Part shown: positions 1 to 22,529 of the stretch, in pieces
Position numbering within the stretch: the stretch's first letter is position 1
How the letters are laid out: each line of letters starts with the position of its first letter
Assembly (NCBI GenBank): GCA_002245135.1
Contig: NGBS01000914.1
Span: 1-48,836 of the forward strand
Length of the DNA stretch: 48,836 nucleotides
Source: Proteromonas lacertae
Taxonomy: Eukaryota
Direction of reading: 5' to 3'
Translations under genes and position numbers: made by a program
Notes under the pieces: model-generated
The model's input: the letters and a program-made list of their open reading frames with translations, nothing else
Databases searched by the model: none
What the model was told of the DNA's origin: nothing

Positions 1-62
1 TTTTACTAATACACCATAAAATACCAGTCATTGAGACAAGTTAAGAATTTGAATGATTTACT

Positions 63-230
63 TCAGGTTTTGGAATCATGCTTTGATAATTTGCTTTCTA
101 AAGCATTTCTTACATCTATAGTGAAGTTACCTCCATAACCTTCTACTAATCTTTTCATATATTGTACAGCTACTTCTTTAACATTGGTCTTATGACATTC
201 CGCTACAATAGGAATAATTTCTTTATTTAA
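63..230 (-). pseudogene. Fragment of an unknown locally repeated protein family (KEVAxxYMKRLVE...RNALESKLSK)
   Basis: Minus strand reads KEIIPIVAECHKTNVKEVAVQYMKRLVEGYGGNFTIDVRNALESKLSKHDSKT*. It is homologous to ORFs 1552-1743(-)/4585-4776(+) and a shorter copy at ~4230-4290. Confidence 0.5.
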
Positions 231-374
231 TATTTTTAGTCATTTTCTTTAATACTACAACAATAGCCTTATCTGAGCTATCAGCGTTATATTTTATAAA
301 TATTTTGGCTTCTTGCAATTTTATTTCATTTTTATCTAAACCACCATCTCTTAATCTTGATTTGCTACACTAAA

Positions 375-420
375 TATTCTCATCAAATAAGTATTGATAG
401 ATTGCCTTCTAAAAAACTAT
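375..420 (-). repeat. Short copy of the WW-domain exon start (with acceptor) of the coiled-coil/WW gene
   Basis: 375-405 (tattctcatcaaataagtattgatagattgc) is identical to 14686-14716, and similarity continues through the splice acceptor. Confidence 0.7.
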
Positions 421-692
421 AATATTAGCTTATAATTGTTGTTCCCGTAAGGCGGAACTCTATATTGCAGAATGATTGAATCAAAACTAATATGATATTC
501 ATGATGTTCGGAGTTAGTTATTTACAAATATATAGTTATTTTGTCATATGACCTACATCTGTGATATACTTTTTTATGAACTTCATTATTATAAATATTA
601 AACTAAATTTTGTATATTTTCTATTTTAATGTATTAGTCACTACTACAATCTAAAATACTTTATCTATTATGAATAGAATTCACTATTTTTA

Positions 693-936
693 ATGTTAAG
701 GCGGTTAAAAAATCAATAACCAAAATTTGAGTGGAAGCTTTTAGATTTGTAATAACTGTGACTTATATCCAATAACTGAATCTATATTACTAATTAAATG
801 CAATAAATTAAGCACTAAAAAGAAAGATTCTTAAAAAATAATAACTTAAAAACTATCACTATGCATGGTAAAGGTGGTTCTGCTCCTAGTTATAATTTAT
901 TAGACTTACATAATATCATACAAAATTATAATCTTG
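693..936 (+). mobile_element. pogo/Tigger (CENP-B-like) transposase relic, N-terminal HTH part
   Basis: Frameshifted translation RRLKNQ*PKFEWKLLD..YPITESILLIKC..RFLKNNNLKTITMHGKGGSA..LHNIIQNYNL matches the CENP-B HTH plus RFKxR..HGExxSA pattern. Confidence 0.65.
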
Positions 937-1790
937 TGGGAAGTTTGGGTTTAGACGCGTGTTCAAAATTTGAACTCGCCTAATCTAGTTAGAGTTTGAC
1001 TCTAATATTTATATTACCTGACTATAATGCTTAATTAAGAGATTCTGAGAAGATGGTAGGGATAGCACAACTTTTTTGGTCTAATTTCACGATCTTTTAA
1101 TGATTGAGCATTTTTGATTCCAACCTATTGTACATAATAACTGTACACAGGATCTCCAGTTTTTTATTAAATATTTACTATTAGATGAGAATGCTCAAAA
1201 TATAATGTGTGATAACACAAGCTCGGCTTGAATATTTTTTATATTTTATAAAATTTGAGCACCTGCCTCCTATAGGAAGCTAGGGCTTATTTTTGTTAAT
1301 TAATTAATAAATACTATTATTTTTAAACTGTTTGACTTATTTACTATCTGAATAAACTATCTTAAGCTCTATTTCAATCGTTTATCCCATAAAAACAATT
1401 TAACTAAGTCATTAAGACATATTATTTATAACTAACTGATAATTGAACCTTTTCTTAAAAAACAAATCATTCAACTAAATTTTGGCAATCTTGTATCTAT
1501 TCGAGGAAGTCAACATATTTTACATTTCATAGCTCTATTATTGTTAAATTATCACCTTCTTGAACATAATTTACTTACATTTATTAAACTACTAGCCATT
1601 GGATAAGTTAAGAATTTAGAATCATCTACTTCTCGTTTTATAATCATGAATTTTGATAATTTGCTTTCTAAAGCATTTCTTATACCTACAACGAAGTTAT
1701 CTCTATTGAATTGTAATTGATATACTTCTACTAATCTTTTCATATATTATAAAGCTACTTCTTTTATATTCAATTTACCTCTCATGATTT

Positions 1791-2014
1791 AGCTTTGAAT
1801 ATCTAGCTTTTACAACCATTCTTTAAAATTTCTCAGGTGTAAGAAGACCTTTATCATTGTAATTGTGATCTTATTAGCTTTACCAATACTCTCTTTTACA
1901 ACACTTACATTCAAAGTATTATTAGTTATTATATATTGTCATAGATTCTTCACCTTCAAACACTTGAATTAACACATCGAGTTGTTAATCACTGTATGTA
2001 CTAAATACTTGAGT
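1791..2014 (-). pseudogene. HSP70: HSP70 substrate-binding-domain fragment (left-arm copy)
   Basis: Reverse-complement copy of 4313-4537. Confidence 0.85.
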
Positions 2015-2769
2015 ATTATTAACTGAAATTTTGATATTAATTGTAATTAATTAACTTCTATTAATTCCTTTCATATATTCAAAAGCTAATTCTTTAACTT
2101 TGTATAACTTTTACTTTATTAAATCATCTCTTCTAAAAAACCTTTTTAAATCACTATAATTTCTTTTCTGTTCAATAAACAAGTCTCAATTATTACTTTA
2201 ACAAGCACACATTCCTATATTATAGTGAAATTCCCATTGCCCAAATATCACTCAATGGACTTATACTACCTGTTTTAATTGATTTGTTTAATATTTTTAT
2301 TGCATATTGATTCTTTGATGGATCTTCACATAATTCAACTAATTTCTTTATTATTTTATATTGATTGATATGTCCATTACCACTTTGATCTACTTGTAGC
2401 TTTCAATTTATTATTATATTCATTGATTTTTTATTTGTTTTTAAGGATTTAAATCATAATTCTATTTAAAAGATTAGATATTTCGTTTTCTTTCATTATC
2501 TCTTTATTAAATTAATTCAAACTCAATCGTTTTAAGCTCATTCCAATAATAATCGTCACTAGTAAATTTATCTAAACGTTGGTTCTACCAATTGTTAATC
2601 TTGAACTAGTTATTGTAGATAAATTGTAACTGAACCAGGAACATCAATAGGTCAATAGAAAAAACTAGCATCATCTATCAATAACTGAGCATATAAATAA
2701 GCGAATTTAAATATTCACGATTATTCTTCTTTTGATGAATGCTTTGTTGGGAATGTTTAAACTAACCAA

Positions 2770-3410
2770 CATAATTTATAGGTAATTGAACATTTCCAAA
2801 TGCAGAAGGAACTGGGATATACTTTAAATACTTACAATTTGAACAACGAATTGCGACTTTGATGGCTTTTGGTCTTTAAAGAGATGCACTGATTATAAGT
2901 CCTGATATACTGACTAGCTTGTTCACATGATTTGCCTATTATATATATGTACATTAAAAATCATTTCATTTATACATTAAATGATCGGATTGATATTGAG
3001 TTTTGTGAAAATTTTAATAAGACATTGATTGAGGGAGGATTTTCTGCATTTAACTCATTTTCTACTACTCTTTGAGCTGCAATTTCAAACTATTGATAAG
3101 TAATAATAATTGTTTAATGTACTTGTGGTAAATAACAATTTGTCTCTCTTTGTAATACATCAAGTAAAACATTGTTGAATACTCCTAGATGAGCTAAATT
3201 TATTTCTACAAAATATTCACCTCTGTTGAAATTTTCCAATAATGATTTTCTAGTGATAAGAATAATCAATATATTTATATATACCTGTAGATATAAATAT
3301 TGTTTTCACTATAATCTCTTAAAAACTCTTGAAACTTTGTTTTGAGCTTGTAAAGGTTCTAAAGCAGACGATTCACCATTAAAAATCTTTCATAAAGATA
3401 ACAAGCCTTC
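2770..3410 (-). pseudogene. MCM5: MCM5-like helicase subunit 5' fragment retaining three short introns
   Basis: Spliced translation FKSFLRDY..IYIYR|KSLLENFNRGEYFVEINLAHL..LPQ|FEIAAQ..SIRSFN|ANHVNKLVSISGLIISASL*RPKAIKVAIRCSNC..GNVQLP. It contains stops and ends before the AAA+ domain. Confidence 0.8.
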
Positions 3411-3539
3411 AAACTTTTTACCACTTTGTTTATTAATATTTCTTGAATTTAAAATTCTGGAAAGAAAATAACGGGATGTACGGGTTCTAGCCCTGTAGTA
3501 GTTCCAAATATTTTTGAATCTGAGGTAGAAATAAAAACA

Positions 3540-4110
3540 GTGAAGTTAAATATACATGAAAAAGCTTTTAAAAACCAAAATGGTGGAAGTCAACAGAATT
3601 CATCTCGAAACGAACCATTGTCATCTAATAATATAATAAAACCTTCAGTTAGACCACTTGGTCAATCTGTTGTAGGTGGTAGGCATACACATCAATCAAT
3701 AGGATCAGTTGGTATATCTTATTGTTCTGAAGAGTGTGATAATCCTGAAGTTTATGATTGGCTTACAAACGAATCACCTCGAAATTCCACAACCTCTCAT
3801 GAAAAAGAAGCTCGAAAAAATGTCAAAAAGTATAGTACAATACTTGTGATATAAGTGAAAATATTCATGGCAAAATTAAAACGTCATGTAACAATCGATA
3901 AGCCTATGGAGCAAACTAATTTATTAAAGTTACAAGTAGATCAAAGTGGTAATGGACATATCAATCAATATAAAATAATAAAGAAATTAGTTGAATTATG
4001 TGAAGATCCATCAAAGAATCAATATGCAATAAAATATTAAACAAATCAATTAAAACAGGTAGTATAAGTCCATTGAGTGATATTTGGGCAATGGGAATTT
4101 CACTATAATA
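3540..4110 (+). pseudogene. Internally deleted CaMKK/SAK1-like protein kinase fragment
   Basis: QTNLLKLQVDQSGNGHINQYKIIKKL-VELC..YAIK (Gly-rich loop missing) is joined almost directly to SDIWAMGISL* (subdomain IX). The part from 3926 is mirrored in the left arm. Confidence 0.65.
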
Positions 4111-4312
4111 TAGGAATGTGTGCTTGTTAAAGTAATAATTGAGACTTGTTTATTGAACAGAAAAGAAATTATAGTGATTTAAAAAGGTTTTTTAGAAGAG
4201 ATGATTTAACAAAGTAAAAGTTATACAAAGTTGAAGAATTAGCTTTTGAATATATGAAAGGATTAATAGAAGTTAATTAATTACAATTAATATCAAAATT
4301 TCAGTTAATAAT

Positions 4313-4537
4313 ACTCAAGTATTTAGTACATACAGTGATTAACAACTCGATGTGTTAATTCAAGTGTTTGAAGGTGAAGAATCTATGACAATATATAATA
4401 ACTAATAATGTTTTGAATGTAAGTGTTGTAAAAGAGAGTATTGGTAAAGCTAATAAAATCACAATTACAAATGATAAAGGTCTTCTTACACCTGAGAAAT
4501 TTTAAAGAATGGTTGTAAAAGCTAGATATTCAAAGCT
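4313..4537 (+). pseudogene. HSP70: HSP70 substrate-binding-domain fragment
   Basis: [25 protein letters not shown] ... [34 protein letters not shown]. It has two in-frame stops and the GIPPAPRG segment is deleted. Confidence 0.85.
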
Positions 4538-5402
4538 AAATCATGAGAGGTAAATTGAATATAAAAGAAGTAGCTTTATAATATATGAAAAGATTAGTAG
4601 AAGTATATCAATTACAATTCAATAGAGATAACTTCGTTGTAGGTATAAGAAATGCTTTAGAAAGCAAATTATCAAAATTCATGATTATAAAACGAGAAGT
4701 AGATGATTCTAAATTCTTAACTTATCCAATGGCTAGTAGTTTAATAAATGTAAGTAAATTATGTTCAAGAAGGTGATAATTTAACAATAATAGAAGCTAT
4801 GGAAATGTAAAATATGTTGACTTCCTCGAATAGATACAAGATTGCCAAAATTTAGTTGAATGATTTGTTTTTTAAGAAAAAGGTTCAATTATCAGTTAGT
4901 TATAAATAAATATGTCTTAATGACTTAGTTAAATTGTTTTTATGGGATAAACGATTGAAATAGAGCTTAAGATAGTTATTCAGATATTAAATAAGTCAAA
5001 CAGTTTAAAAAATAATAGTATTTATTAATTAATTAACAAAAATAAGCCCTAGCTTCCTATAGGAGGCAGGTGCTCAAATTTTATAAAATATAAAAAAATA
5101 TTCAAGCCGAGCTTGTGTTATCACACATTATATTTTGAGCATTCTCATCTAATAGTAAGATATTTAATAAAAAAACTGGAGATCCTGTGTACAGTTATTA
5201 TGTACAATAGGTTGGAATCAAAAATGCTCAAATCATTAAAAGATCGTGAAATTAGACCAAAAAAAGTTGTGCTATCCCTACCATCTTCTCAGAATCTCTT
5301 AATTAAGCAATTATAGTCAGGTAATATAAAATATTAGAGTCAAACTCTAACTAGATTAGGCGAGTTCAAATTTTGAACACGCGTCTAAACCCAAACTTCC
5401 CA

Positions 5403-5620
5403 ATTATCATTGCAGTTACAGCGAATATGACTAATTCGGTGAAGATATTATTACTTTTTATTGGAAAGTGTAAAAAGCCTACAACTATTTTAAACAGAAA
5501 AATGCATGAATGGATTCTTCTTGTCTTCAGGATTATATTGACAAAATATTCTTCCCATCTATAGGAAGAATAGATTATAAAAGAATACTGTTAATACTTG
5601 ATAATTTTAGCGATTATGCT
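5403..5620 (+). mobile_element. pogo/Tigger DDE_1 transposase relic, catalytic-domain part
   Basis: IIIAVTANMTNSVKILLLFIGKCKKP ... QKNA*MDSSCLQDYIDKIFFP..KRILLILDNFS matches the T..NATG.KL.L.IGK..P / KAWM / LLxLDN DDE_1 motifs. Confidence 0.8.
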
Positions 5621-6099
5621 AGGTGCTTGCTGTTGCGCTCCGTTTGTCATAGTTGGCAATTTGTCTACCAGATACTTTTAAAACAAACTAAATGTATATT
5701 CTTATTTGTCTTGATGAAAAATTGTTACTTTTATACTTACTTTGTTGAGGAGAACGGCTGTTCAAATTTTTAACACCCTATTTCTAGTGGTGTTACAGCC
5801 TTTATATTAAATTTCTTCTAGATATAGATAAGTAATTAAGAGTTTCTGAAGCTATCTGTGAATTTCGTTTACTTATGATTAATTCATTTTGACATTAGTT
5901 TTAAAATTGAGGTCCTAACAAAAGTGCATAATATCTGCATTTAGGACCTCCAATTATTTTCATAATAATATGTTTATTTAATGAAAAAATAAACAAAACA
6001 TTTTCACAAAGCAAACCTCAAGTTTGAATGATTATAAATTTTTTATTTTTTAAGCTCCTTATACAATACATGAATAAGAAATATTATTATGTGGTTTTA

Positions 6100-6265
6100 T
6101 GATTAATATACAAAGACAGAGTGGTGCTAGAATTAAAATATAGTGAATATGTTACATGTTATTTAATAGTTACTAGTCATTTTGGATAATTTAATTAAAA
6201 TGTCAAAGAGATAATTGTTTTTGGTTGCTACAATTAAATTGAATATGTAGTTGATGTAATTAACT
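6100..6265 (+). pseudogene. KH-domain fragment inside the inverted-repeat arm (mirror ~7655-7820, -)
   Basis: INIQRQSGARIKI* followed by KEIIVFGCYN*IEYVVDVIN resembles the second half of a KH domain. Confidence 0.45.
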
Positions 6266-6471
6266 AACAATGTTGATGATAAACATTGAGAATAGTAGCA
6301 GAATTAGGAATGATGTTTGAGAAGAAGATTTATTGAAATTTAAATGGTGAATCTGACACACCCACTTGCTTTTAGTTATTTAGCAAAGGAAAGAAAAATA
6401 ACAGTAACAACAGCTCTAGTAATAAACTTAATATCTGGATCTAATAGCCATTAGATTATTATGAAAATATT

Positions 6472-7188
6472 TTATTGTTTATTGCTACTATTGAAAGTTC
6501 CATCACAAACCAAAGTAGCATATTTTTGCAACCTTTCTTGGTCCATAATAACTAAAACTGTATCTTTATTTTTGTATACAGTATATTTTTGTTCAACATT
6601 AAAGAAAAATCTTCGCATCCCTTCTTCTTCATTTCTTAATTCTTTTTTGAAATTAATAACTTTTGTTTTTATCTGCTTTTCTAAATTATTAGTTATTCTA
6701 TATCTATCCTTAACTGTTTTAATAATATTTGGCAATAATGATTTTGTGTTCTCAGCCATTGAAATTACTTCATTTTCAATATCATTAGTCAATTTATAAA
6801 TTGTTCTTTTATCTATAATTCTATTCAACTTATGATTGTGAGATTTAAATTCAACTATTATTTCCTTAGTATAATCAACCTTAACGCAAAAATTACATCC
6901 TCCTTCATAATCACAGGAAAATGTTAATTCCTTCTTTGCATGACTTGAATAATGCACAATTGGTTTAAAACCTACTTGATACCCATAAAGATGAACGATA
7001 AAATAAACATCACCTTTCGTTTTGAACTTGGATTTAAATATATCTTCGTGTATATCTGCAAACTTCTTAAAAGGTGGGTATATTTTGCACACCTTTGCCA
7101 GCTCTTTACATCTGCCATCGACTATTGAGTGACTGTCCTTACTAACAGGAATCACTACACATTCATTTATAATTTCAATTTTATTCAT
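6472..7188 (-). mobile_element. Truncated Mutator (MULE) transposase ORF, 238 aa, intronless
   Basis: FAR1/WRKY-GCM1-type zinc module (YGYQVGF..FSC..GGCNFCVKV..HNH) followed by LVCDGTFN (first catalytic Asp), then a stop. Confidence 0.8.
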
Positions 7189-8674
7189 ACTGGTACAATT
7201 AGTTTATATAATTAGATATATGTAAATAAAAAATTACAGCTTTATTACAAAAACAAACAACAAAACTAGTAGAAATGCAATTCTTAATCAACCAAAATTT
7301 CCCCCAAATACCCCTTAATTTTATTATTAAAAAAGAATTATTAAGGATAACCAAGCAACACTATGTAGTATTCCATACAAGAAGAAAAATAAATATGTGT
7401 ATAAATAGCATATCTAAGATCTGTCTAAAAGAACATCTATAATCAAATCATATTCGATCCATATTACTTTATAATTAGATCCAGATATTAAGTTTATTAC
7501 TAGAGCTGTTGTTACTGTTATTTTTCTTTCCTTTGCTAAATAACTAAAAGCAAGTGGGTGTGTCAGATTCACCATTTAAATTTCAATAAATCTTCTTCTC
7601 AAACATCATTCCTAATTCTGCTACTATTCTCAATGTTTATCATCAACATTGTTAGTTAATTACATCAACTACATATTCAATTTAATTGTAGCAACCAAAA
7701 ACAATTATCTCTTTGACATTTTAATTAAATTATCCAAAATGACTAGTAACTATTAAATAACATGTAACATATTCACTATATTTTAATTCTAGCACCACTC
7801 TGTCTTTGTATATTAATCATAAAACCACATAATAATATTTCTTATTCATGTATTGTATAAGGAGCTTAAAAAATAAAAAAATTAAAATCATTCAAACTTG
7901 AGGTTTGCTTTGTGAAAATGTTTTGTTTATTTTTTCATTAATTAAACATATTATTACGAAAATAATTGGAGGTCCTAAATGCAGATATTATGCACTTTTG
8001 TTTGGACCTCAATTTTAAAACTAATGTCAAAATGAATTAATCATAAGTAAACGAAATTCACAGATAGCTTCAGAAACTCTTAATTACTTATCTATATCTA
8101 GAAGAAATTTAATATAAAGGCTGTAACACCACTAGAAATAGGGTGTTAAAAATTTGAACAGCCGTTCTCCTCAACAAAGTAAGTATAAAAGTAACAATTT
8201 TTCATCAAGACAAATAAGAATATACATTTAGTTTGTTTTAAAAGTATCTGGTAGACAAATTGCCAACTATGTCAAATAGCGCACAACACTTTCCAGAGGA
8301 TATTATTTTAACTACATTGGAAAACTACAATACAATAATTAGTATGCCTATCGAAAAATCAAGAGGAAAGCTAGAAATAGTTGTTGGTTGTAATCCTAAT
8401 GATCATGAAATACATAATGATCATTTGAATAATAAAACATAAGATATAAAGCTAAAAAAAGGTATAAACAATTTAATTAAATTATTATATAATTCAAAAG
8501 TAAGGGCATATATAAGCTCAGCATAAATAACCATATAGGGATATCACATTACCCCCTATCACATCAATAGAGTTGTGCATTTATTCAATTGCTGTATGTA
8601 AGAGAAGTAACATTTTAACTACTTCAAAATGTTTTGGAAAACGTGATTAAAATAAAATATTCAGATTATTACAT

Positions 8675-8887
8675 ATGGTAAAAGCCAAAGTCAATTCAGA
8701 TTCTGTCAACAAAGATCTATGTAAATTAATAACCTTCAATGCAGTCAGTACCACAATATTAGACTCACCAGAATTTAGAAGGTTTTGCTTCAAACTAGGA
8801 TATATTATACCTCTAAGAGAGTTTTATAATGCTTATTTATTTTCAGAAACTGAGAAAGTAAGAGACTTATTGAAGACAAATCATTAA
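8675..8887 (+). mobile_element. hAT transposase fragment (region after BED finger)
   Basis: LCKLITFNAVSTTILDSPEFRRFCFKLGYIIPLR..YL..ETEKVRDLL fits the hAT 'v...F..l....Y.lPsR' pattern. A CAGGG-type terminus lies nearby. Confidence 0.6.
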
Positions 8888-9189
8888 TATCCATAAATAG
8901 AGATTTATTATTATAATTACATTAATATTTGTTTTTTAGAGATAGTAATCAATATAAATTAATCATCAAAATAACTTGTTGTTTATAAATATGTTAAATA
9001 TCACTATTGAGTAGTTTGTAGATGAATTTTAATATATTAGTATAGATATTTATACAATTTCAACCAATCTTAGTCATAACTATAGTAACTAAAGTAAAAC
9101 AAGAAGCAGGAATAATATTTTATATAGTATGATAGTTTGTATAAAACAAATGTTACTCAGCATGTAATTAAAATAGATTTTAACAAAAT

Positions 9190-9275
9190 AATGCTCGAGG
9201 TTTGACCGACCAACGGTCAAAGCTAGATAATAGGTTTTACCTATAACCTATAGGTTACCTATTTATACAACCCTG
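9190..9275 (-). mobile_element. Probable hAT terminus with subterminal repeats
   Basis: Ends ...acaaccctg (CAGGGTTGT on -), with repeated acctata/taggtt motifs and a tttgaccg-N4-cggtcaaa hairpin. Homology to the paralogous LRR 3' flank (13446 onward) starts exactly at 9276. Confidence 0.55.
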
Positions 9276-9369
9276 ATAGAAAGTATTTAATATTAACAGA
9301 AAATATGAAAATATGTATAGTATAGTATGATAAACATTTTCATTATAGAGTAAAACAACTAAAAATCAA

Positions 9370-12300
9370 TTACACTACATTGCTAAACTCATTTAAAAAC
9401 TCATTTTTCTTTTCTTCTTCTATCCCATCCAGCTCTATTATACCAATTGATGTAAATGTTTCTAAAAATGATTTTAATTCTGATTTATCTATATCTTCTT
9501 TTAATGTTATTGATAATTCTTCTAAATCTTCAAATACTTCTTTGTTTTCTTTCATTAATCTCAATTCTTTTTCATCTAATTCATTTCCTGATAAATTTAT
9601 ATTTGTCAATGGTATATTATCTTTTAATCTTTCTATTAACATCATCAATCCTTTTTCACTCATCACAATTTCTATATACAATACAATACAATACAGAATT
9701 TTAAATACTTGAGATGTTTAATGATGATATAGAATAAATAAATTTATCTAAATATTTATATATTATCTCTATTCCTTCATCTCCAATTTCATTATTATGA
9801 ATTGAGATATATTCAACATTTTCTGTAAAAGAATCTGTTAATTCTTTTAATCCATTACAACTAATCTTGTTATTGGATATATCAAGATATTTATAATCAA
9901 TCTGTTTTATTAATGAAATATGAGAATCATTCACATTTAAATCTATTTCATTATAAACACACATAATATACTCGAAAAATCATAACATTTTTCATAACTT
10001 CTTCTTTTCTTTTTAATACAATAATTCAAATAATATTCACATTCTTCTTTTCTCCATGATTTATTATTCATTTGAATAAATGGATATTCTTCTTTTTCTA
10101 ATGTTTTGGAACAAATTGATTTTAATCCATTCATTCTGATATTATTTCCATTTAAGTTTATTGTGTTGCAATTAGAAATTGAATCTATCTTATCAGCTAA
10201 TAATATCACACTTTCATCATCTATTGAGATATTACTCAAATCATAATCATATATTAACATGATTACATTGTTTATTAATAGCTTAAATCCAGCATTACCA
10301 ATTGGATTATCTATTAAACAAATTAAAAACTACCATAAATATACTTTGAATATTCAATTCATTAATAATATCACTTTCTTTCATATAATTCATCAAATAT
10401 TCTATTCCTTCTGAATCTATATTATTATCACTTATATCCAATCTGATCTTTTGATGAATACTCTTTAAACCATCTAATAAATACTTCAATCCAATTGAAG
10501 ATAATCCCATTTCTATTGAATATTAAAAGATAGTATTGATACTTGAACAATTAATCTCATCAATATAACTTAATAAATGTAAATGTGGAGATAATATTTT
10601 CATTCCTTCATCTCCTATTTCATTTTCATTTAATTCAAGATATTCAAGATTTGGAAATGAAGATAAATTGTTTATCAATATCTCTATACTTTCATATGTT
10701 AGTTTATTATCTATATAATAATAAAAATATCAAATTATACAACGCAAATATAACACTTCTATTTCTTTCAATTCATTTGATCTTAATGAAATGAATCTTT
10801 TGAAAATATCATCATCTATTTCTAAATTAAACAGATATAATTCATTGTATTGGTTTATATATTTGAATAATTCAGGAATGTCTTTATCAATCAGTAATTC
10901 TTTACTAACATCACAATATATATTTCGAAATTTGGAGAATAAGGCTTTTAATCCTATTGAATGAATGTTTTGGTTTTCTCTAATATCTATTTTATTAAGA
11001 TTTGGATATTTATATAATTCTGATGATAATAACATCATACATTCATCATTTAATTTCATTCCTCTAAGATCTAATTCATTGTCTTTGTTGATTAATAAAT
11101 TCAAATATGGAAGTAACAATTTAAATCCTTTCGCACCAATTTCATTAGCTATTTCAAAAAATAACAATATGATTATAAATACATCGAAGATCTATATATT
11201 TCAATTTCATTAATGGAATTGATTTAACAAATGATTCAATGAAATAGGAAGTAAGATTATAACATGATAAATATAATGTTTGTAGATTTGATAATCCAGT
11301 CAAATATGATCCAAATAATGATTGATGAATAATTGGTATTTGAATATGATCTATACAAATAATAATATATAGAAAAATACTAAATAACAGCTTAGTTGGA
11401 TTGATTTTTCTCAATATTCTAAATAAATAATTCAGTCCTTCTTCACAAAAACATATACAATCTGGTTCTATTTTCATCTTTTCTTTATCGAAATAATTGC
11501 TTTCTATCTTAAATATTATCTCATCTAAATTACATTCTCCATATTTACATTTATGATGTATTTGAAATTTCAATCTATCCTCAATTGAATTATCTTCTTT
11601 GTACATTTTCATCATCAATAATATTGACAATATTCTTTCATTTGGTTGAATATTGTAGGATTCTATCAATTTATCTCTAATCACTTCTCTTTTTTCACTT
11701 TCAATATAATATTTTGATGGATATGTTATTGGAAGTCTAACAATTGTATTATCATTATTTAATAATATTTCTTTTCTTTCTTCACATATCATCATATTAT
11801 CACCTTCATCTATCAATATTTCACTCATTTTTATCATTTCTTTCTTCAACTCTTTCAAACTCATTCTATCTTCATTCTTCACTTTCAACATTCTATATAT
11901 CATCTCTTTCATTCTATCATCACATTCTACATCTATATTGTATTTACATCTCACAATATTCTCTCTTGTTTTAAACATATTATTATCTTCTGAAAATGGT
12001 AATTTATTAAACATCATTTCATATAATATACACCCAATTGACCAAATCACACTTCCTTTATCATATTCTAATCCATTCAACTCTTCTGGACTTGTGAAGC
12101 ATATATCATACAATCTCATATCTTCTTCTTTTCTTATTTCATTCAAACATAAATCACATAACTTTAAAATACCATTCTCTTCATATATCACATTACTACT
12201 CTTCAAATTACCTACTACAATCTCATTTTCATTCATTACCATTACATCATCACATATTGAACTTATTATATCACATATTTCATTCACACATAAACAATTT

Positions 12301-12644
12301 TTAGAAACTATCTCTTTCAAGTCTCTACTGTAATATTCTCTACAATATATCATATATTCACCATAATCATTCATATCATATACTCTATATCGATAAATGA
12401 AGGAGGAACAACAAACTAACAACAAACACTTATTCTCTAACAATTTTAATATTTGTTTCTCTTTTATTTCACATACATTAAACACTTTCAACTTTTGAAT
12501 ATCAGTTTCATATTCTACAACTAAATCTAACTCATTAACACTTCTTTCTATTCTCTCTTTCTCCTAATAAAAATAAATTAATTATAATACTTTCATATCA
12601 CATGCTAATTTAGCATATAACACTTTATCTATCAAATGCAACAT
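9370..12644 (-). CDS. Pseudokinase + RNI-like LRR protein (copy L1), multi-exon
   Basis: Kinase fold with degenerate motifs (VGNLKSSN, LKLCDLC, FTSPEE, VIWSIGCILYEM, KLPF), then many LxxLxLxxNxIxxxG repeats joined by ~30-nt GT-AG introns. Start codon approximate. Confidence 0.8.
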
Positions 12645-12784
12645 TTCAAAATATTGAGTCGTTTCATTTATGGAATTTTTTATTTACATACACAGAAATC
12701 ATTCTAACACAATATTTGTTTATTATATTCATATTTATTAACACTTGAAAAACAACTTCAACAAGTAAATTAAAGGAAAATATT

Positions 12785-13380
12785 AGATATTTAATGGATG
12801 TTTCTTTTTTAAAGCAAATTTGTTTGTTTTCTTCATCGTATTATTAGATACTTCAGCTTCATTTGTATTTTCATCTATTTCTAATTCAACTCCTTCTACA
12901 TTACCTACTGCCCAAGCACTTTCTGTTGATACTTTACTTACTTCAGTTGCTGTTGGAGATGATTCTGGAAATTATGATTTAGGATTTAAATAATATACAA
13001 TCTATAAAATCTATATCACTCATTTCATTATTCTATTGACTTTTTCTGTTAATCTTTCTGGAAGATTTAAATCTCTTAGACTATATATTCAATTCATTTA
13101 CTATTTCACTCATATAATTCAATTACTACTATAATATAAAATAGTCAACATTTTTCATAATTATTTGTCTATTTTCTTCTTCTATTATATTAATCCACAT
13201 ATTTCTATTAACTAAACAATCAACAATTTCTACAATGAGTTATTTCTTTTCTTTACACTCTTTCAACGAATTGTTTTACTAAACACACTTTATATATATC
13301 TTCTTCATCTGGATACTTAATTACTTTATCACATTCATAAATTCAGTCACCAATCTCTTTCATTCACATTTTAAACTCAA
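12785..13380 (-). pseudogene. Degenerate coding-like fragments of unknown origin
   Basis: Purine-rich coding-like composition and a ~60-codon open stretch (PESSPTATEVSKVSTESAWAVGNVEG..), with many stops upstream. Confidence 0.3.
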
Positions 13381-13559
13381 ATGAAATTTATATAGGCTTG
13401 ATCATGGTTTGATAATGTATTTTGAATAATTTGATCAAAACAAATATAGAAAGTATTTAATATTAACAGAAAATATGAAAATATGTACAGTATAGTATGA
13501 TAAACATTTTCATTATTAACAAATAAAAGAATAATAGAGTAAAACAACTAATAATTGAA

Positions 13560-14288
13560 TTATTTAACATTCAAATATTCTTTTGATAGTTCTTTCTTTT
13601 CTTCTTCTTCTATCCCATCCAGCTCTATTATATCAATTGATGTAAATGTTTCTAAAAATGATTTTAATTCTGATTTATCTATATCTTCTTTTAATGTTAT
13701 TGATAAACTATCTAAATCTTCAAATACTTCTTTGTTTTCTTTCATTAATCTCAATTCTCTTTCATCTAATTCATTTCCTGATAAATTTATATTTGTCAAT
13801 GGTATATTATCTTTTAATCTTTCTATTAACATCATCAATCCTTTTTCACTCATTCCAATTTCTATATACAATACAATACAATACAGAATTTTAAATACTT
13901 GAGATGTTTAATGATGATATAGAATAAATAAATTTATCTAAATATTTACATATTATCTCTATTCCTTCATCTCCAATTTCATTATTATGAATTGAGATAT
14001 ATTCAACATTTTCTGTAAAAGAATCTGTTAATTCTTTTAATCCATTACAACTAATCTTGTTATTGGATATATCAAGATATTTATAATCAATCTGTTTTAT
14101 TAATGAAATATGAGAATCATTCACATTTAAATCTATTTCATTATAAACACACATAATATACTCGAAAAATAATAGTATTTATTGTCTTTTCTTTTCTTTT
14201 TAATACAATAATTCAAATAATATTCACATTCTTCTTTTCTCCATGATTTATTATTCATTTCTATAAATGGATATTCTTCTTTTTCTAA
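13560..14288 (-). pseudogene. 5'-truncated LRR copy (L2), last three exons only
   Basis: 13446-14288 is a direct repeat of 9276-10101. It begins abruptly at LEKEEYPF with no start codon. Confidence 0.8.
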
Positions 14289-14497
14289 ATATGGAATAAT
14301 CTTTTTTAAATATGGAAATGATTTTATACATTTTGAGAATGTATTTATTCATCAAATATTGGTTATAGAGACATTTTCATTAGATTATCAATAAACACAT
14401 AAAAAACACATAGTATATGAAAATTAAAATATAAAGTAAGAAGTGAATATAATACTAATTTATTTATAATATATATATATATTACAATATATATGAT

Positions 14498-17400
14498 TTA
14501 ACTATACAAAGCTTCAACACTTCCAGTTCTATCATTTCTCTTATACAAACGACCTTCTGTTGTTCTACAAACAGTATAACCACCATCTAATTTTTGACCT
14601 TCTCTATATATTATTATATCCAGATCTTCAGGAGGATCCCAACTCGTACTTCCTGTTTCAGTGTTAAAGAAGTAATAACAACCTGTATTCTCATCAAATA
14701 AGTATTGATAGATTGCTTCCTAAACAAATATTAAAATCATTAATAATAATATATATATACATGATTAGTTGAATCAGCAGTTGGAGGTCTTAAAGCATCA
14801 TTCCCAGTTACTATTGTCATTTTAGATGGTTTAGGGTTACTACTATTTCTTTCGATTAATAAATCTCGCTCATATATTTGTTTTGTCATATCCATCTTTA
14901 TAGCGATCAAACGATTATCTAATTCACTTTCTAATTTATTGAATCTATTCACAAATGATTTGATCGATGTATCTAAGTAAGATTGTAATGAATGATAATT
15001 CGTTCGAATCTCACTCATATTCGCATGATCTACGAAGTTGTATAAATTATCAAATTCTATTTGCCATTTCAAATTATCCATTGTTGTAGTTAAACTCAAG
15101 CTATCCATTGATTTGTTTATATAATTCATATCTTTCTTATTATTATCTAATTGTTGATTTACCTCCTTCTTTGTATTTGTTACTGTTACTTTCAACTCAT
15201 TAATATCATTTTCACAGTCACTAAGTCTTCGGTTATTATTATCTTCTATACGCTTCATTTCTATTTTCAATTATATAAAATTAATATATATATATATATA
15301 ATACTTTCATCTGTTACTGTCTTATATTGTTCCAACTTCAATTTTACATCATTCTTTGTATCTTCCAATTTATTGTGATAGTCACTATAATAGTGGAATG
15401 TTTCATCCTTCAATTTGTTATAGTTTTCTTCTACTAAAGCTCTTTCCATCGCTTCATTGGCTATTTGTTTACTTTCAATTAATTCATAAATATCATTTAT
15501 CTTCTTTTCTACATAATCTTTCAATTCATTATTTTCACGAATATCATTCAATACTTTCTCTAATCTTTCATTTTGATTATCAATCTTGTTATTAATTATT
15601 TGTCTCTGTTTTGCATTTTCTTCACTAAATTGACTCATTTCATTGTGTATTTTCTCCATCTTTTCTTCATTTCTTTCAATACTGTTCTTGTTGATTTCAG
15701 CTTCGTTATTAATCTCATTTTCAATATTTCGATGTCTTTCATCACATTCATATCTTAATGAATCAATGCTTTGTTGACAATTCTTTATCTTCTTATCTAA
15801 ATCACTCACTCTTCTCAAATTCTTATTTATTACATCTGTCACATGTTTTTCATATAATTCAAAGTTAGTTTGATTGTACAAATCATTAATAACAGCTTGT
15901 GCTACAACTTCATTTCTTAAATTATCTATTGCTTCTAATTTCAAACTTCCATCATTAGCTAAACCACCATTATTATTAGTTGAGCTATAACCACTTAATT
16001 CTAATTGCGGTCTAGTTATATAATCACTTTCTATTGCTTTTATTCTACAATTATGATTGTCTAAATCATTTTGAATTCTTCTTATTAATTTATTAGACAT
16101 TCCATCATTGATATTATTATTATTACTTCTAGCTGAAGCTAAATCACTATTTTTCATCTCTTCAATTTCATCTTTTACATCATTCAATTCTTTATTCAAA
16201 TCACTCAACTCTTTATAGATTGCACTATTTTTACTATTTCCACTATCAATTCCTTCCATTTTCATATTACTAATCTCTTGTAACCTACTAGAAAGACTCA
16301 CTAATTGATTGGTTATTTCATTATCTTTATTATTTATATTCTTCATTTCTGTGACTATATAATTCTCTAATTTTGTTTCAATCTCTAATATTTCTTGCTT
16401 AAAGTCTTCTATATCTTGACTGTGTTTATTTAATCGTATTTCCAAGTTCTTTGCTAAGTTATTTAGCTTTATATCATATCCACCAAATCCTTTATCTATT
16501 GTATCTTGAACATGATTTTCGTATGTTTGAAGTATGTCATTTTGACCTTTAATTGTAGTTAATACATCGGAATATTTATTATCAATCTATTAACAAACAT
16601 TAAAAATAATAATATAATATAATATATATATATATATACTCTTCGAATGGAATCATCTAATAATTTTCTACTTTTCTTTTCATCACTCAATCCACTTTCT
16701 AACAATTTTAATTTCTGTATAACACCACTCCATTTATTAAAATCCATAGCACCACCATTACTACCATCAATTAATGGATTTATATTATTCAAAGGAATTC
16801 CTCCAACACTTTGATTCTGTATTGTAGCATCAATAACTACTTTCTGTTCCATTTGATCATTTACTATACCATTTACTGCTTCTCTTACTTTACTTTCTAA
16901 ATCAATTATATTATTCTTTACACCATTTAAATCTATATTCAATCTATCAATATTATTATTAACCAACGAGAGTTTGTTATTTAAATCATTTGTATTAATG
17001 GAAATATCTTTGACTTTATTTTCAATTTCATTCATTCGTGTTATATAATTTTGATTCATATTCTCAAAACTCATTTTTACATCATACACTGATTTTTCCA
17101 CTAAATTGATTCGACTAATTAATCGTTCTACATCATTGGATCGAGCCATTTCAAAGTGTTCAGTTTTATTTTGAATTCCACTTATTACATCTTTTATATC
17201 ACCATTATATTTCGAATAATTCTTTCGCCACTCTTTTTCATGTTTTAATTCACTCTCTAATTGGTATAATCTGCCTTTTAGCTCATTTATTAAGTTACTA
17301 TTCTCTCTTTGATTTTGATTATATTGATCCAGCTGATTCTTTAACAAAATGAATGATTTGTCATTTTGTTGAGATTGAGGCGGGTAATATTGCGGCGCAG

Positions 17401-17900
17401 GTGGTTGAGCTTGAATTATTTCAAGCTTTGCTGCTGGTAATGGACTGTTTGACTGTGGAATATCGAATTTTCTATAATAAATATAATTTTATATATATAC
17501 TGTGGATTGTAATATTGATTTGGAGGTTTTGGTGGAGGAGGATCATCATAATAAGGTTCTGGTGGTTTTACTATTGGTTTTTCATAATAAGGACTTCTTG
17601 AAGGGTTATTATTTTGAATTGGGGCTATTGGAGGTAGAACACCCACTTTCTGCTGTGGAGAATCTCCATGTAATCTATCATAACGATTCTTTTGCATCAT
17701 CCTTTCTTTCTCTTCAATTTGCCTTTTTAAAGCTAAAGGCTAAAAAATAAAAATCATACATCTACTATATGCTTCTTGTAATTCTCTTCTACGACGTTCA
17801 TTCTCTAAACCCTCTTTACCAAACATCAAAGGTGTTTCTGGAGTATTGCCTATTCATAATATATTATTATATGTTTGGATATACCTCTATATTCTGCCAT
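14498..17900 (-). CDS. Large coiled-coil protein with Pro-rich N-terminus and C-terminal WW/WW-like domains
   Basis: Exons join through short GT-AG introns from MAEYR. Long heptad-rich ORFs. Last exon YLFDENTGCYYFFNTETGSTSWDPP..GYTVCRTTEGRLYKRNDRTG. Confidence 0.75.
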
Positions 17901-18033
17901 ATAAATGTGTAACTAAAAAACGAATAACTGCCAATAAGAAACGAGTATATTTTTTATAAATTTTGAATTATTTTTTTCACACACCAATTTCAATTTCAAA
18001 TTATTTCTGGAAGGTTATTCTATAGAATAAATA

Positions 18034-18771
18034 ATGCCACATATTTATACCCCAGATGATATACTTCAATTGAATGCTCCAACTAAAGGTATTCATCTAT
18101 ATTTATCATTGATTTATAGATTATTTATGTTCTCCTGAAGATAATGTCTATGGAATAGAATTTTTAGAGTTTGAGATATACAACGATGAGACAAAAGAAA
18201 AATATTTCCAAATTGGTTGTCCAGACCAAAGATACGATTTGCCAAGTAGATTTTCACGTTGCGCTGATGATCTTAGAAAAATCTATTATGAGTTTCCATT
18301 AGGTGTATTAGAAGCACCAATAATTGCTACTAGGTATATATTATGTGATTATACTCTTTATAGATTAAAGTTCAAAGTTGGACCACAAGAAGTTCGTGAT
18401 TTTAGAATGATAGAAAGACATTATTTTAGAGATACTCTTTTAAAAAGTTATGATTTCCAATTTGTGTTTTGCATTCCAAATTCAGAGAATGAATGGGCTT
18501 CTTATTACAAAGTACCTCCTCTTAACAAAGATTTGCGTATTTTTATTTCTGTTTTATGAATATAGTTGATCAAATCTGTTTACATCCTAATGAGACACAG
18601 AGTGATAGTTTTTATTTTGTTGGTGATGAATTGATAATGCATACAAAAGCAATTTACACTTATTTTAGACCAAATGAAACAATCAGTCGATCTTTACCTG
18701 CTGAAGTTAAAGAATCAGAAAGAATTACAGCAAATGAAAGTAAGTTAGATGCTAGGCATCCTAGAAAGTAA
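18034..18771 (+). CDS. UNC119: UNC119 (PDE-delta family) lipidated-cargo carrier, 4 exons
   Basis: YLCSPEDNVYGIEFLEF, FRMIERHYFRDTLLKSYDF.F.FCIPNS.N, SDSFYFVGDELIMH.KA.Y.Y. Confidence 0.92.
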
Positions 18772-18838
18772 CTAACAACCGTAATTTATTCTTGTTTTTT
18801 TTAACATATAAATTCTTAAAATTACATAACGTATATAT

Positions 18839-19338
18839 TCATTTTTTATAATACTTTATTATAAACACCGAAGAATTCTGATCTAAACACACAAAAGTAT
18901 CTACTGGTGATTTAATGTCGTTAAATATTAATATTCCTTATTTCTACCTTGTCTTATCATAATAGTATGTTTGCCCATATTATATATAATCTCATATTTT
19001 TCTTCTTTCTTTGATTTTATTTCATTTATTACTTTTTCTCTAGCAAATTCACCGCCAGATCCATATAACACAAATTTATCTTTATTTATAGCAATACTAC
19101 AGGAAGAATCATGATTATAAATGAAATGACCAAAATAGTCTTTAATAGTAGAACAGCCAATGTATAATCCATTTTCATTGTGAGATATAAATATAAAATG
19201 ATGAATTCCATTTTCTAATACTATGCCCAAGTAGCAATGAGGTAAAGCAGCAACAGAACTGGATTTATTTAAATTTGTATTTCCATTATCAGTTAATACA
19301 ATATATATGTGCTTATTATATGAAAATTTTATATCCAT
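18839..19338 (-). CDS. SPRY/B30.2-like small protein; C-terminal strands out of frame
   Basis: LENGIHHF..GLYIGCS..IIYNM..HTIMI, then in another frame IFNDIKSPVDTFVCLDQNSSV. Confidence 0.45.
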
Positions 19339-19421
19339 TTTCTAAAATACTATTACAATTTTGATATATATCAAAAAACGCATATACAATATATTATTAT
19401 AATATTACAACTAAAAATCAA

Positions 19422-21949
19422 TTACACTACATTGCTAAACTCATTTAAAAACTCATTTTTCTTTTCTTCTTCTTCTATCCCATCCAACTTTACTATACCA
19501 ATTGATGTAAATGTTTCTAAAAATGATTTTAATTCTGATTTATCTATATCTTCTTTTAATGTTATTGATAATTTTTCTAAATCTTCAAATACTTCTTTGT
19601 TTTCTTTCATTAATCTCAATTCTCTTTCATCTAATTCATTTCCTGATAAATTTATATTTGTCAATGGTATATTATCTTTTAATCTTTCTATTAACATCAT
19701 CAATCCTTTTTCACTCATCACAATTTCTATATACAATACAATACAGAATTTTAAATACTTGAGATGTTTAATGATGAAAACATGAAGAATTTATCTAAAT
19801 ATTTACATATTATCTCTATTCCTTCATCTCCAATTTCATTATTATGAATTGAGATATATACAACATCTTCTGGAAAAGAATCTGTTAATTCTTTTAATCC
19901 ATTACAACTAATCTTGTTATTGGATAAAACAAGATATTTATAATCAATCTGTTTTATTAATGAAATATGAGAATCATTCACATTTAAATCTATTTCATTA
20001 TAAACACACATAATATACTCGAAAAATCATAACATTTTTCATAACTTCTTCTTTTCTTTTTAATACAATAATTCAAATAATATTCACATTCTTCTTTTCT
20101 CCATGTTTTATTATTCATTTTAATAAATGGATATTCTTCTTTTTCTAATGTTTTGGAACAAATTGATTTTAATCCATTCATTCTGATATTATTTCCACTT
20201 AAGTCTATTGAACAACAATAAGAAATTGAATCTATCTTATCAGCTAATAATATCACACTTTCATCATCTATTGAGATATTGGTTAAATCAATTTTATTTA
20301 AATAATTTTCTAATAACATGTCTAAATTGTTTATTAATAGCTTAAATCCAGCATTACCAATTGGATTATCTATTAAACAAATTAAAAACTACCATAAATA
20401 TACTTTGAATATTCAATTCATTAATAATATCACTTTCTTTCATATAATTCATCAAATATTCTATTCCTTCTGAATCTATATTATTATTACTTATATCAAC
20501 TGAATAGAAATTATCTATATCATCATCTTCTTCTTCATTATTTACTTTTAATTCGTTCATAAAGAATCTAGTCAACTCATCACCTTCATTATCATGAAGA
20601 ATTTTCTTTAAACCATCTAACAAATACTTTAATCCAATTGAAGATAATCCCATTTCTATTACAAATAATATCATAATAATAATAATACTTGAACAATTGA
20701 TTTTATTAATAATACCATCTTTTAATAAATGTAAATATGGAGATAATATTTTCATTCCTTCATCTCCTATCTCATTTCCATTCAATTGAAGTTCTTCAAG
20801 ACTTGTAAATGAAGATAAATTGTTAATCAGTATTTCTATACTTTTGTATGTTAGTTTATTATCTAAATAATATAAAAATATCAAATTATACTGTTCAAAT
20901 CTAATCTCCAGATTATTTCGAATTCATCTGATCTTAATGAAATGAATGATTTGAAAAAATCATCATCAATTTCACAATTACTCACATTTAATACATCATC
21001 ATTCATCAATCCAATTAATTCTTTATCAACTAACATTTCCATACTCTCTTTATTAAAATCAAATTTAATCTTTGAAATTGGAAATTTGGAGGATAAGGCT
21101 TTTAATCCTTTTGAATGAATATTCTTGTTTTCTGCAATACATATACTCTCAAGATTTGGATATTTGTATAACGCTTCAGATAATAATATCATTGATTCAT
21201 CATTTAAATTCATGTTAAAAAGATTTAATTCATTTTTGTCGTTGATCAGTAAATGTAAATATGGAAGTAATGATTTGAATCCTTTCACACCAATTCGATT
21301 AGCTATTTCAAAAGAATAAAAAGAAAATATATATACACTGAAGATCAACATATTTCAATTTCATCAATGGAGTTGATTTAACAAATGATTCAATGAAATG
21401 AGAAGTAAAATTACACCATGACAAATCCAATTTTTCTAAATTTGTTAACTGTGAAAAAAATGATCCAAATAAAGAATAATATTGAATTGGAATATCAATA
21501 TGATTATAGTGCTCTTCGAAAACATCATTATTCTTGGGATCCTTTCCAAATTTTAAGTTTGCTGGATTGATAAGTTTCAATATTCTCATGAAGTAATTCA
21601 ATCCTTCTTCACAATAACAAATACAACTTGAATGAATAATTATAACACCACCATAATATGAGTAAATATCAAATATCATTTTATCTAAGTAACACTCAGC
21701 ATCTTCTTTACAGTGGTGATTTATCTGAAATTTCAGCTTAGTTTGAATGGAATCATCATTTTTGTTTAACTTCATCAGCAGCAACTTTGATAATACTTCT
21801 TCATCAGGTTTAGAGTTGTAGCTTTCTACAAGTTGTTCAATTGCTTCTTCATTCTCTTTCGAATCTACTTCTATTCTTCTTCTTTTCTACATCGAATGAA
21901 TAAAAATATATACTACATAAATACTTGAAGGTTTATTAGAATTACTCAT
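19422..21949 (-). CDS. Kinase-less RNI-like LRR protein (copy L3), 8 exons
   Basis: Starts MSNSNKPSSIYV|KRRRIEV. It is homologous to L1 from the post-kinase domain (LVESYN.KP.E.VLS.LL.MK..LKFQI.H.CK) to the end. Confidence 0.8.
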
Positions 21950-22529
21950 AAAATTGTGTTTTGTTTCAAAAATATAGTCGTTATGATTGAGATATTTTTG
22001 TGTTATTCTGAATAAATACAACTAAATTACTAAAATGCTATTCCTGTGAATTGAAAATAATACAGAAATACTTCCATCAATTAAAATTGTAAAGTATTTT
22101 AAACATTTTGAAAATGTATTTGTTTCAGTTGAAGTTAAATCATTCACTAAAACTATAATCATTATATTTCATGCAATCTAAATTAATTTTTTTACATTAT
22201 TCATTCCTCCATCTTTCATTTAAACTAAGAATTCATAATTAAATATCACATTATATATACAATCACAAAAATGCATTCCAATCCCATTTTCATTTTTATC
22301 ATCAATTCTTTCTTCTATTTTCATATTATTTTATACTCAATAAACCAAATACTAATATCATTATTTTATCAAATTCTAAACAACAGAACAACAACAAGAA
22401 GCAGATAAAACAAAAAATGAAATATCAAGTTTTTTGTATTATTTTTTGATTTTTATACATTTACAGATTCTATTTAAGTAGATTAAAATCACTCTAATAA
22501 ACAAAAGCATATGAATATTTTCATTATTT

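What the first reader, a model, noticed from the sequence alone, without database searches (positions are those of the whole stretch)
937..5402. Pack-type foldback element that has captured MCM5, kinase and HSP70 fragments, some copied into both arms
Seen: 1.46-kb near-identical arms contain decayed kinase and HSP70 pieces. The spacer holds an intron-retaining MCM5 5' fragment head-to-head with the kinase 5' fragment. Retained introns show DNA-level capture. The pieces were already stop-riddled and deleted before being mirrored, so arm expansion or homogenisation is recent. Established: Pack-MULEs capture gene fragments between TIRs. Inference: a Pack/foldback family in this protist whose read-through transcript would form a ~1.4-kb hairpin with HSP70/kinase homology, a possible small-RNA source.
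Basis: partly seen in the sequence, partly recalled or inferred. Interest (0 to 1): 0.7.

Follow-up and report, generated by a model that had tools for sequence, protein, structure and literature searches.

The report
Mirrored gene scraps between transposon-like ends
A 4.5-kb stretch of DNA from an AT-rich eukaryote has two near-identical mirror-image arms filled with broken scraps of ordinary genes; it is likely the remains of a gene-capturing DNA transposon whose arms were later copied inward, and nothing yet shows that it moves or silences genes.

Summary
The inverted arms are real in the assembly: 937-2413 and 3917-5402, 98.3% identical (7 substitutions, 16 one-base gaps). The spacer holds an intron-bearing MCM 5' piece. 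New: only the outer ~330 bp look like an element end. They are 61% like both arms of the neighbouring inverted repeat (5631-8288), which encloses a truncated Mutator-like ORF, and the likeness starts 18 bp from the terminus at a shared 23-bp palindrome. The inner ~1.1 kb was mirrored after the cargo decayed: parents are 81-87% identical, the arms 99.5%. Against a Pack family: no target-site duplication, similar scraps outside the ends, copy number untestable, and 57% of the window lies in inverted-repeat arms, some of ordinary genes. No evidence for hairpin RNA or small RNAs. Verdict: probably a dead Pack-like element with inward-grown arms (0.5); a plain inverted duplication is the main rival (0.3).

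The parts
937..2413 (-). left arm (cargo reads on the minus strand)
   Evidence: self-BLAST 98.3% to 5402-3917; differences listed
3917..5402 (+). right arm (cargo reads on the plus strand)
   Evidence: parts held at 99.6-100% by contigs of X1 and X3
937..1270 (+). left end repeat, putative TIR proper; homologous to the neighbour's arms
   Evidence: 955-1264 vs 5754-6059 and 8165-7860, 61%, E 3e-11
5053..5402 (-). right end repeat, putative TIR proper
   Evidence: alignment score 133 vs shuffles 60 +- 9, max 94 of 200; significant in the three outermost 150-nt windows
957..979 (.). 23-bp palindrome 20 bp inside the left end
   Evidence: 2 of only 3 such palindromes in the window are these two
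5360..5382 (.). 23-bp palindrome 20 bp inside the right end; counterparts at 5756-5778 and 8141-8163
4539..4860 (+). decayed 3' piece of a biotin-dependent carboxylase, likely propionyl-CoA carboxylase alpha (mirror about 1470-1790)
   Evidence: Pfam Biotin_lipoyl E 0.003; two best of 8 weak PDB hits are PCC alpha, E 0.24 and 0.35; parent-like contigs 81-87% identical
4297..4540 (+). decayed, internally deleted HSP70 piece (mirror about 1790-2030)
   Evidence: parent contig with 90 letters where the arm has 7
4234..4292 (+). short second copy of the carboxylase piece (mirror 2035-2095)
   Evidence: 85% to 4565-4624
3476..4110 (+). kinase-like 5' piece, running from the spacer into the right arm, with internal deletions (arm part mirrored at about 2220-2400)
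   Evidence: open frames 3453-3854 and 3855-4037; identity from recalled motifs only; 3414-3821 held by an X1 contig at 98%
2775..3393 (-). MCM (likely MCM5) 5' piece with three short introns at 3284-3250, 3122-3090, 2975-2936
2414..2774 (.). unidentified spacer DNA
   Evidence: no Pfam hit in 3 minus-strand frames; 2414-2597 held by an X1 contig at 96%
5403..5620 (+). right flank: decayed pogo-type DDE_1 transposase piece, beginning at the right end
   Evidence: Pfam DDE_1 E 4e-4, E 0.06 for 5403-5540
5631..8288 (-). neighbouring inverted repeat: 815-bp arms (5631-6445, 7474-8288) around a 243-codon Mutator-like ORF (7203-6472) that stops just after a DGTF motif
   Evidence: 98.8% arms; ORF; ESM Atlas leads to FAR1/MULE, FLYWCH, ZSWIM and ALS2CR8 clusters at 0.86-0.89, no Pfam hit
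17..420 (-). left flank: further scraps outside the element (carboxylase-like 17-185; WW-gene piece 375-420)
   Evidence: 77% to 1585-1770; 91% to 14686-14731, which is a WW domain

Best explanation
The structure is likely a dead, non-autonomous Pack-like DNA transposon whose true ends are likely the outer ~0.33 kb of each arm, and whose arms were likely lengthened inward by about 1.1 kb through inverted copying after the cargo had decayed. Steps: (1, inferred) an element related to the neighbouring Mutator-like repeat lost its transposase and was filled, by gap repair with template switching, with genomic DNA from several loci: an MCM 5' end with the shared promoter and the kinase-like 5' end as one piece, then carboxylase and HSP70 pieces, all in one orientation on the arm; (2, shown) these pieces drifted 13-19% from their parents, toward A+T, and lost internal blocks; (3, shown as order, inferred as mechanism) the right-hand cargo, from the kinase-like piece outward, was copied in reverse onto the other side, by arm-to-arm conversion or repair primed from the inverted ends; (4, shown) the arms then picked up a few private changes. 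It most likely has no function; a read-through transcript would fold back on itself, but none is shown.
For: Outer ~330 bp homologous to both arms of the adjacent inverted repeat (E 3e-11; score 133 vs 60 +- 9), collinear, starting 18 bp from the terminus and not continuing into either flank (12 of 12 flank tests no better than shuffles). Shared 23-bp palindrome near the ends. The neighbour has the layout arm - 290 bp - ORF - arm, with Mutator-type leads for the ORF. Several genes' pieces in one orientation, introns kept. The kinase-like frame runs on from the spacer into the right arm (3855-4037), so the left inner arm is the copy. Parents 81-87% identical against 7 substitutions in 1477 arm columns; in run X2 the window has A or T for the parent's G or C at 21 places against 6 the other way. 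Each arm has private changes against the HSP70 parent: left keeps the parent base at 4410 and 4457, right at 4411. Two eIF2-gamma paralogues in the window share an ~800-bp core at 96-100% between flanks of 50-71%, which points to conversion between inverted copies in this genome.
Against: No target-site duplication: at the arm ends 8-11-bp flanks differ at 3 or more places. The neighbour's arms reach 123 bp further out than the shared repeat, and a DDE_1 frame stays open across that boundary (5510-5770), so arm ends here need not be element ends. Scraps of the same kind lie outside the ends. The end repeat might be a decayed transposase coding piece (recalled hAT- and pogo-like motifs can be read into it; 0 of 96 pieces hit a transposase family; the codon test had little power). 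The neighbour's ORF has no Pfam hit and its fold failed. 57% of the window lies in inverted arms, so an inverted repeat alone says little here. No second copy of the ends could be sought in the genome.
Confidence: 0.5

Rival explanations
1. A transposon-independent inverted duplication inside a junk region. The first 9 kb of the window are a patchwork of gene and transposon scraps; replication or repair template switching copied 1.46 kb of it in reverse, as it did for ordinary genes elsewhere in the window. The end repeat is only an old transposon fragment that happens to lie at the boundary.
For: Three more inverted repeats, including 10.5-kb arms of ordinary genes and an eIF2-gamma pair; scraps outside the ends; pogo, BED-finger hAT and Mutator-like pieces all within 1-9300; no target-site duplication.
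Against: Two separate inverted repeats 4.7 kb apart both have the same repeat, in the same polarity, at or near their outer ends, and here the likeness stops at the terminus; chance would rarely give that twice.
Confidence: 0.3
2. An assembly artefact: fold-back or amplification chimeras, or two haplotypes joined head to head, created the mirror image.
For: 15 of 16 gaps lie in one-base runs and 13 are missing from the left arm, as in unevenly polished long-read consensus; an unusually large share of the window is in inverted arms; no independent record was shown to span either left-arm junction.
Against: 7 substitutions with changes private to each arm; the eIF2-gamma pair has two diverged, in-frame C-termini, which a chimera does not make; arm and spacer sequence is held at 96-100% by 5 contigs of two public runs of one study, which shows the sequence but not the arrangement.
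Confidence: 0.1
3. A maintained hairpin locus: read-through transcription gives a 1.4-kb double-stranded RNA whose small RNAs silence the related transposons or tune HSP70 and carboxylase genes, and selection keeps the arms alike.
For: 1458 of 1464 left-arm bases pair with the right arm in the predicted fold; inverted duplications of transposon DNA do silence in maize (10.1101/2020.01.07.897926, abstract; PMC3440606, listing); low-depth contigs of runs guessed to be RNA cover parts of the spacer and arm.
Against: The likeness to parents is 81-87%; among the listed differences in the middle of the carboxylase piece the longest perfect run is 19 nt. Likeness to the neighbour's arms is 61%. Conversion explains the arm identity without selection. 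Whether the organism has Dicer or Argonaute is unknown.
Confidence: 0.07
4. The end repeat is the 3' end of a Helitron-like rolling-circle element (hairpin near the end, no target-site duplication, multi-gene capture in one orientation), later duplicated in reverse.
For: 23-bp palindrome about 20 bp from the end, no target-site duplication, cargo oriented toward that end; Helitron features are recalled.
Against: No CTRR end at the recalled spacing behind the hairpin; the neighbour has the same repeat as an inverted pair around a Mutator-like ORF.
Confidence: 0.03

Closest known systems
Pack-MULEs of plants and Pack-TIRs of animals (PMC8277862, passages; PMC6446971, passages)
   Same: Host-gene pieces copied at the DNA level between long inverted ends; most animal Pack-TIRs are single-copy and attributed to gap filling without transposition.
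   Different: No 8-11-bp target-site duplication; cargo of about 2.5 kb from at least four genes against a median of 224-305 bp; about 1.1 kb of cargo is itself mirrored into both arms; copy number unknown.
Foldback / Mutator elements with long arms: Drosophila FB4 and Ssk-FB4 (PMC8277862, passages); Tm1 of root-knot nematodes (PMC3169594, abstract)
   Same: Long arms, non-autonomous, can carry host sequence.
   Different: Those have 9-10-bp target-site duplications and several copies; Tm1 has composite TIRs. No tandem array is found in these arms, and most of the arm is host-gene debris.
Inverted-duplication silencing loci of maize: Mu killer (PMC3440606, listing) and Ac/Ds composite insertions (10.1101/2020.01.07.897926, abstract)
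   Same: An inverted duplication tied to transposon ends that would give a long hairpin on read-through.
   Different: There the hairpin matches an active element closely and small RNAs are shown; here the match to any target seen is 61-87% and no RNA is shown.
Palindromes kept alike by arm-to-arm gene conversion (recalled from mammalian Y chromosomes; search listing only)
   Same: Arms far more alike than their age suggests; the eIF2-gamma pair of this window shows the pattern.
   Different: Kilobase scale, dead cargo, no sign that conversion protects working genes in this repeat.

Membership tests
Pack-MULE | Long terminal inverted repeats at both ends | tested here: met
   arms 98.3%; outer ~330 bp form a separate repeat
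Pack-MULE | TIRs belong to a family that also flanks a Mutator transposase | tested here: inconclusive
   61% to the neighbour's arms; the neighbour's ORF is Mutator-like by Atlas leads under 0.9 and a recalled DGTF motif, no Pfam hit; its arms extend 123 bp beyond the shared part
Pack-MULE | 8-11-bp target-site duplication | tested here: not met
   6 end placements tried; 8-11-bp flanks differ at 3 or more places; longest exact repeat over 76 x 76 placements is 6 bp
Pack-MULE | Host-gene fragments inside, with a parent elsewhere | tested here: met
   HSP70 and carboxylase parents seen as contigs at 81-87%; no parent seen for the MCM or kinase-like pieces
Pack-MULE | Capture at the DNA level (introns kept) | tested here: met
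   three GT..AG introns in the MCM piece
Pack-MULE | Other paired copies of the ends with different flanks or cargo | not testable with these tools
   no genome held; 0 exact matches of the 24-nt end in metagenome contigs
Foldback (FB-type) | Modular arms built from tandem subrepeats | tested here: not met
   no tandem array before position 14258
Foldback (FB-type) | 9-10-bp target-site duplication | tested here: not met
Helitron | 3' hairpin followed by a CTRR end; 5' TC (recalled) | tested here: inconclusive
   hairpin present, CTAA only 2 nt behind it, 20 nt to the arm end; a 5' end cannot be placed
Hairpin small-RNA locus | Transcript through both arms and 20-25-nt RNAs from them | not testable with these tools
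   only contigs of runs guessed to be RNA; no raw or small-RNA reads

The most novel reading that the evidence does not exclude
In this eukaryote Mutator-type ends seed palindromes that grow inward by arm-to-arm copying and so turn captured gene debris into kilobase hairpin templates; the same homogenising process acts across the genome (57% of this window is in inverted arms), giving a Pack-foldback family outside plants and animals that feeds RNA silencing of transposons and housekeeping genes.
Probability: 0.12. Interest if true: 0.65.

Novelty: new variant of a known kind. Interest (0 to 1): 0.33.

Why it matters
Gene capture between TIRs is well known in plants and animals and reported in a myxozoan (10.64898/2026.02.11.705288, passages). 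The listings of my searches (at most 15 papers shown each) showed no protist case, which is no proof of absence. If the end repeat proves to be a family, this is a Pack-type element in a little-studied lineage, with cargo mirrored into the arms. The wider point is the window itself: four inverted repeats cover 57% of it, and one pair of paralogues shows a converted core. That would make this genome a test case for how inverted repeats arise and are homogenised. If the ends are single-copy, it is ordinary junk duplication.

Tried and rejected
Own genome: not held. Sequencing runs: no RNA holder listed; three coded runs of one study, shares 0.10, 0.04, 0.00. Parts without contig cover (2752-3258, 4949-7470) are no evidence either way. 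The X1 contig at 4515-4751 has under 31 letters on one side of the HSP70/carboxylase joint and is not counted as bridging it. One X1 contig runs past 2414 toward the left arm, but its further 111 letters were not shown; the left arm and its junctions remain unchecked in independent data. End repeat as hAT, pogo or Mutator coding DNA: motifs read by eye fitted all three, so none is trusted; 6 of 96 short pieces gave weak unrelated Pfam hits, none a transposase; third-position test p 0.13 and 0.66, but 2 of 3 coding controls also failed. Homology running on into the left flank: looked collinear but was no better than shuffles. An apparent extension into the right flank came from comparing a stretch with its own reverse complement and vanished when corrected. 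CpG- or RIP-type decay: 0 of 18 listed G/C-to-A/T sites in CpG and 7 of 18 in CpA, about as expected. Relatives: none for the kinase-like N-terminus or the Mutator-like ORF; none for the DDE_1 piece in viral contigs; fold of the ORF unusable, pLDDT 33.5. No tRNA, no Rfam family in 1-9400. Organism not identified: best eIF2-gamma relatives 78% and 71%, unnamed; 25% G+C and introns of about 27-54 nt recall some gut stramenopiles, but passages of PMC12129017 gave no firm match. No usable paper on RNA silencing in Blastocystis among 3 listed. Earlier findings of the scan: none.
Full report
Observation. Self-comparison of the window finds 937-2413 matching 5402-3917 in reverse at 98.3% over 1490 columns. 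Over the core there are 7 substitutions and 16 one-base gaps; 15 gaps lie in runs of one base and 13 are missing from the left arm, so many gaps may be consensus errors. The DNA is 25% G+C, uses the standard code and has short introns. The organism was not identified. No whole genome is held.

Content of the arms. Read outward on the right arm: kinase-like pieces (3917 to about 4110), a short carboxylase-like piece (4234-4292), HSP70 (4297 to about 4540), a biotin-carboxylase 3' piece (4539-4860), about 190 bp of unassigned DNA, and an end repeat (about 5053-5402). HSP70 is shown by Pfam and by a parent-like contig that has 90 letters where the arm has 7. The carboxylase piece is shown by Pfam Biotin_lipoyl at E 0.003; the two best of 8 weak PDB hits are propionyl-CoA carboxylase alpha. 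The kinase label rests on recalled motifs; Pfam and PDB do not confirm it. The spacer holds an MCM 5' piece (MCM5 is the only PDB hit, E 1.5) with introns of 35, 33 and 40 nt. Its start lies 82 bp from the kinase-like start, head to head, which suggests one donor segment with a shared promoter (inference).

Order of events. Of the contigs laid from three coded runs of one study (7, 8 and 7 contigs), deep ones match the HSP70 and carboxylase pieces at 81-87% and go on into intact-looking gene sequence: these are the likely parents. Five shallow ones match spacer or arm at 96-100%. In run X2 the window has A or T for the parent's G or C 21 times against 6 the other way. The arms have since changed separately: the left keeps the parent base at 4410 and 4457, the right at 4411. 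The kinase-like frame runs from the spacer into the right arm (3855-4037), so the inner left arm is the copy, unless the spacer has flipped.

The ends. Positions 955-1264 match 5754-6059 and 8165-7860 at 61% (E 3e-11); the score is 133 against 60 +- 9 for 200 shuffles. The match is significant for the outer three 150-nt windows and fades inward. It does not go on into either flank (12 of 12 corrected tests; an apparent extension was a self-overlap error). A 23-bp palindrome sits 20 bp inside each end; these are 2 of only 3 such palindromes in the window, and the neighbour has a counterpart with one more mismatch. The neighbour (5631-8288) has 815-bp arms at 98.8% around a 243-codon ORF that ends just after a DGTF motif (the motif's meaning is recalled). 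The ESM Atlas puts it next to unnamed eukaryotic clusters at 0.93-0.95 and gives FAR1/MULE, FLYWCH, ZSWIM and ALS2CR8 clusters at 0.86-0.89, which are leads only; Pfam gives nothing relevant. This is the best evidence that the outer third of a kilobase is a TIR of a Mutator-related family.

Evidence against a Pack family. No target-site duplication is found, while MULEs have 8-11 bp (PMC6446971, passages). The right end abuts a pogo-type DDE_1 piece, so the right flank may have been rearranged. The neighbour's arms extend 123 bp beyond the shared repeat, and the DDE_1 frame stays open across that boundary. A carboxylase-like piece (17-185) and a WW-gene piece (375-420) lie outside the left end, and a BED-finger hAT piece lies at 8675-8884: the first 9 kb are a graveyard. 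The window also holds 10.5-kb inverted arms of ordinary genes (129 substitutions and 45 gap events) and two head-to-head eIF2-gamma genes with an ~800-bp core at 96-100% between flanks at 50-71%. In all 57% of the window is in inverted arms. Inverted copying and conversion are therefore common here and need no transposon. What the end repeat once was could not be settled.

Hairpin RNA. A transcript of 937-5402 would pair 1458 of 1464 left-arm bases. That follows from the sequence and shows no function. The runs are contigs, guessed to be RNA, and cannot show strand or level. Among the listed differences in the middle of the carboxylase piece the longest perfect match to the parent is 19 nt (17 of 28 differences were listed), so small RNAs would seldom match the parents fully.

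Mechanism and odds. Most likely (0.5) a Mutator-related element lost its transposase, was filled with DNA from several loci by gap repair, as proposed for single-copy animal Pack-TIRs (PMC8277862, passages), decayed, and then had about 1.1 kb of cargo copied onto the other arm. Capture at the DNA level, decay, and the order decay-then-mirroring are shown; the identity of the ends as TIRs, gap filling and conversion are inferred. Rivals: plain inverted duplication of junk (0.3), assembly artefact (0.1), maintained silencing hairpin (0.07), Helitron-like end (0.03).

Relation to what is known. It works like a Pack-MULE or Pack-TIR, and its mirrored form resembles the inverted-duplication loci of maize. 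It is not filed as a member: the target-site duplication test failed, the modular-arm test for Foldback failed, and copy number could not be tested. Papers seen: PMC6446971, PMC8277862, PMC12129017 and 10.64898/2026.02.11.705288 as passages; PMC3169594 and 10.1101/2020.01.07.897926 as abstracts; PMC3310237 as abstract and one methods section; PMC3440606 as a listing. No supplements were read.

Verdict. A real, partly misread feature: a probably dead Pack-like repeat with inward-grown arms in a genome region rich in inverted repeats. Interest 0.33; it would rise if the end repeat proves to be a family or the arms yield small RNAs.

Noticed in passing
window 14095-24601 and 38453-48836 (runs off the end): Inverted duplication of at least 10.5 kb of ordinary genes (WW, UNC119-like, LRR, coiled-coil), 97% identical, around a 13.9-kb spacer; the right copy has more frameshifts.
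   Followed up: partly
window 34219-35597 and 36996-38410: Two head-to-head eIF2-gamma paralogues with an ~800-bp core at 96-100% and diverged, in-frame C-termini: a likely gene-conversion tract.
   Followed up: partly
window 5631-8288: 815-bp inverted arms without gaps around a stop-free 243-codon Mutator-like ORF cut just after the first catalytic-type motif; possibly an internally deleted long-TIR MULE.
   Followed up: partly
window 8675-8884 and 9167-9270: A 70-residue piece related to unnamed BED-finger (hAT-type) proteins, followed by a palindromic stretch at 9198-9224 that may be an element end.
   Followed up: partly
window 9276-14288, 19407-21828, 41158-43567, 48653-48836: Several direct and inverted copies of an LRR / kinase-LRR gene family at 74-95% identity.
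   Followed up: no
window 8242-8439: A 66-codon open frame crossing the right end of the neighbouring repeat; no family found.
   Followed up: partly
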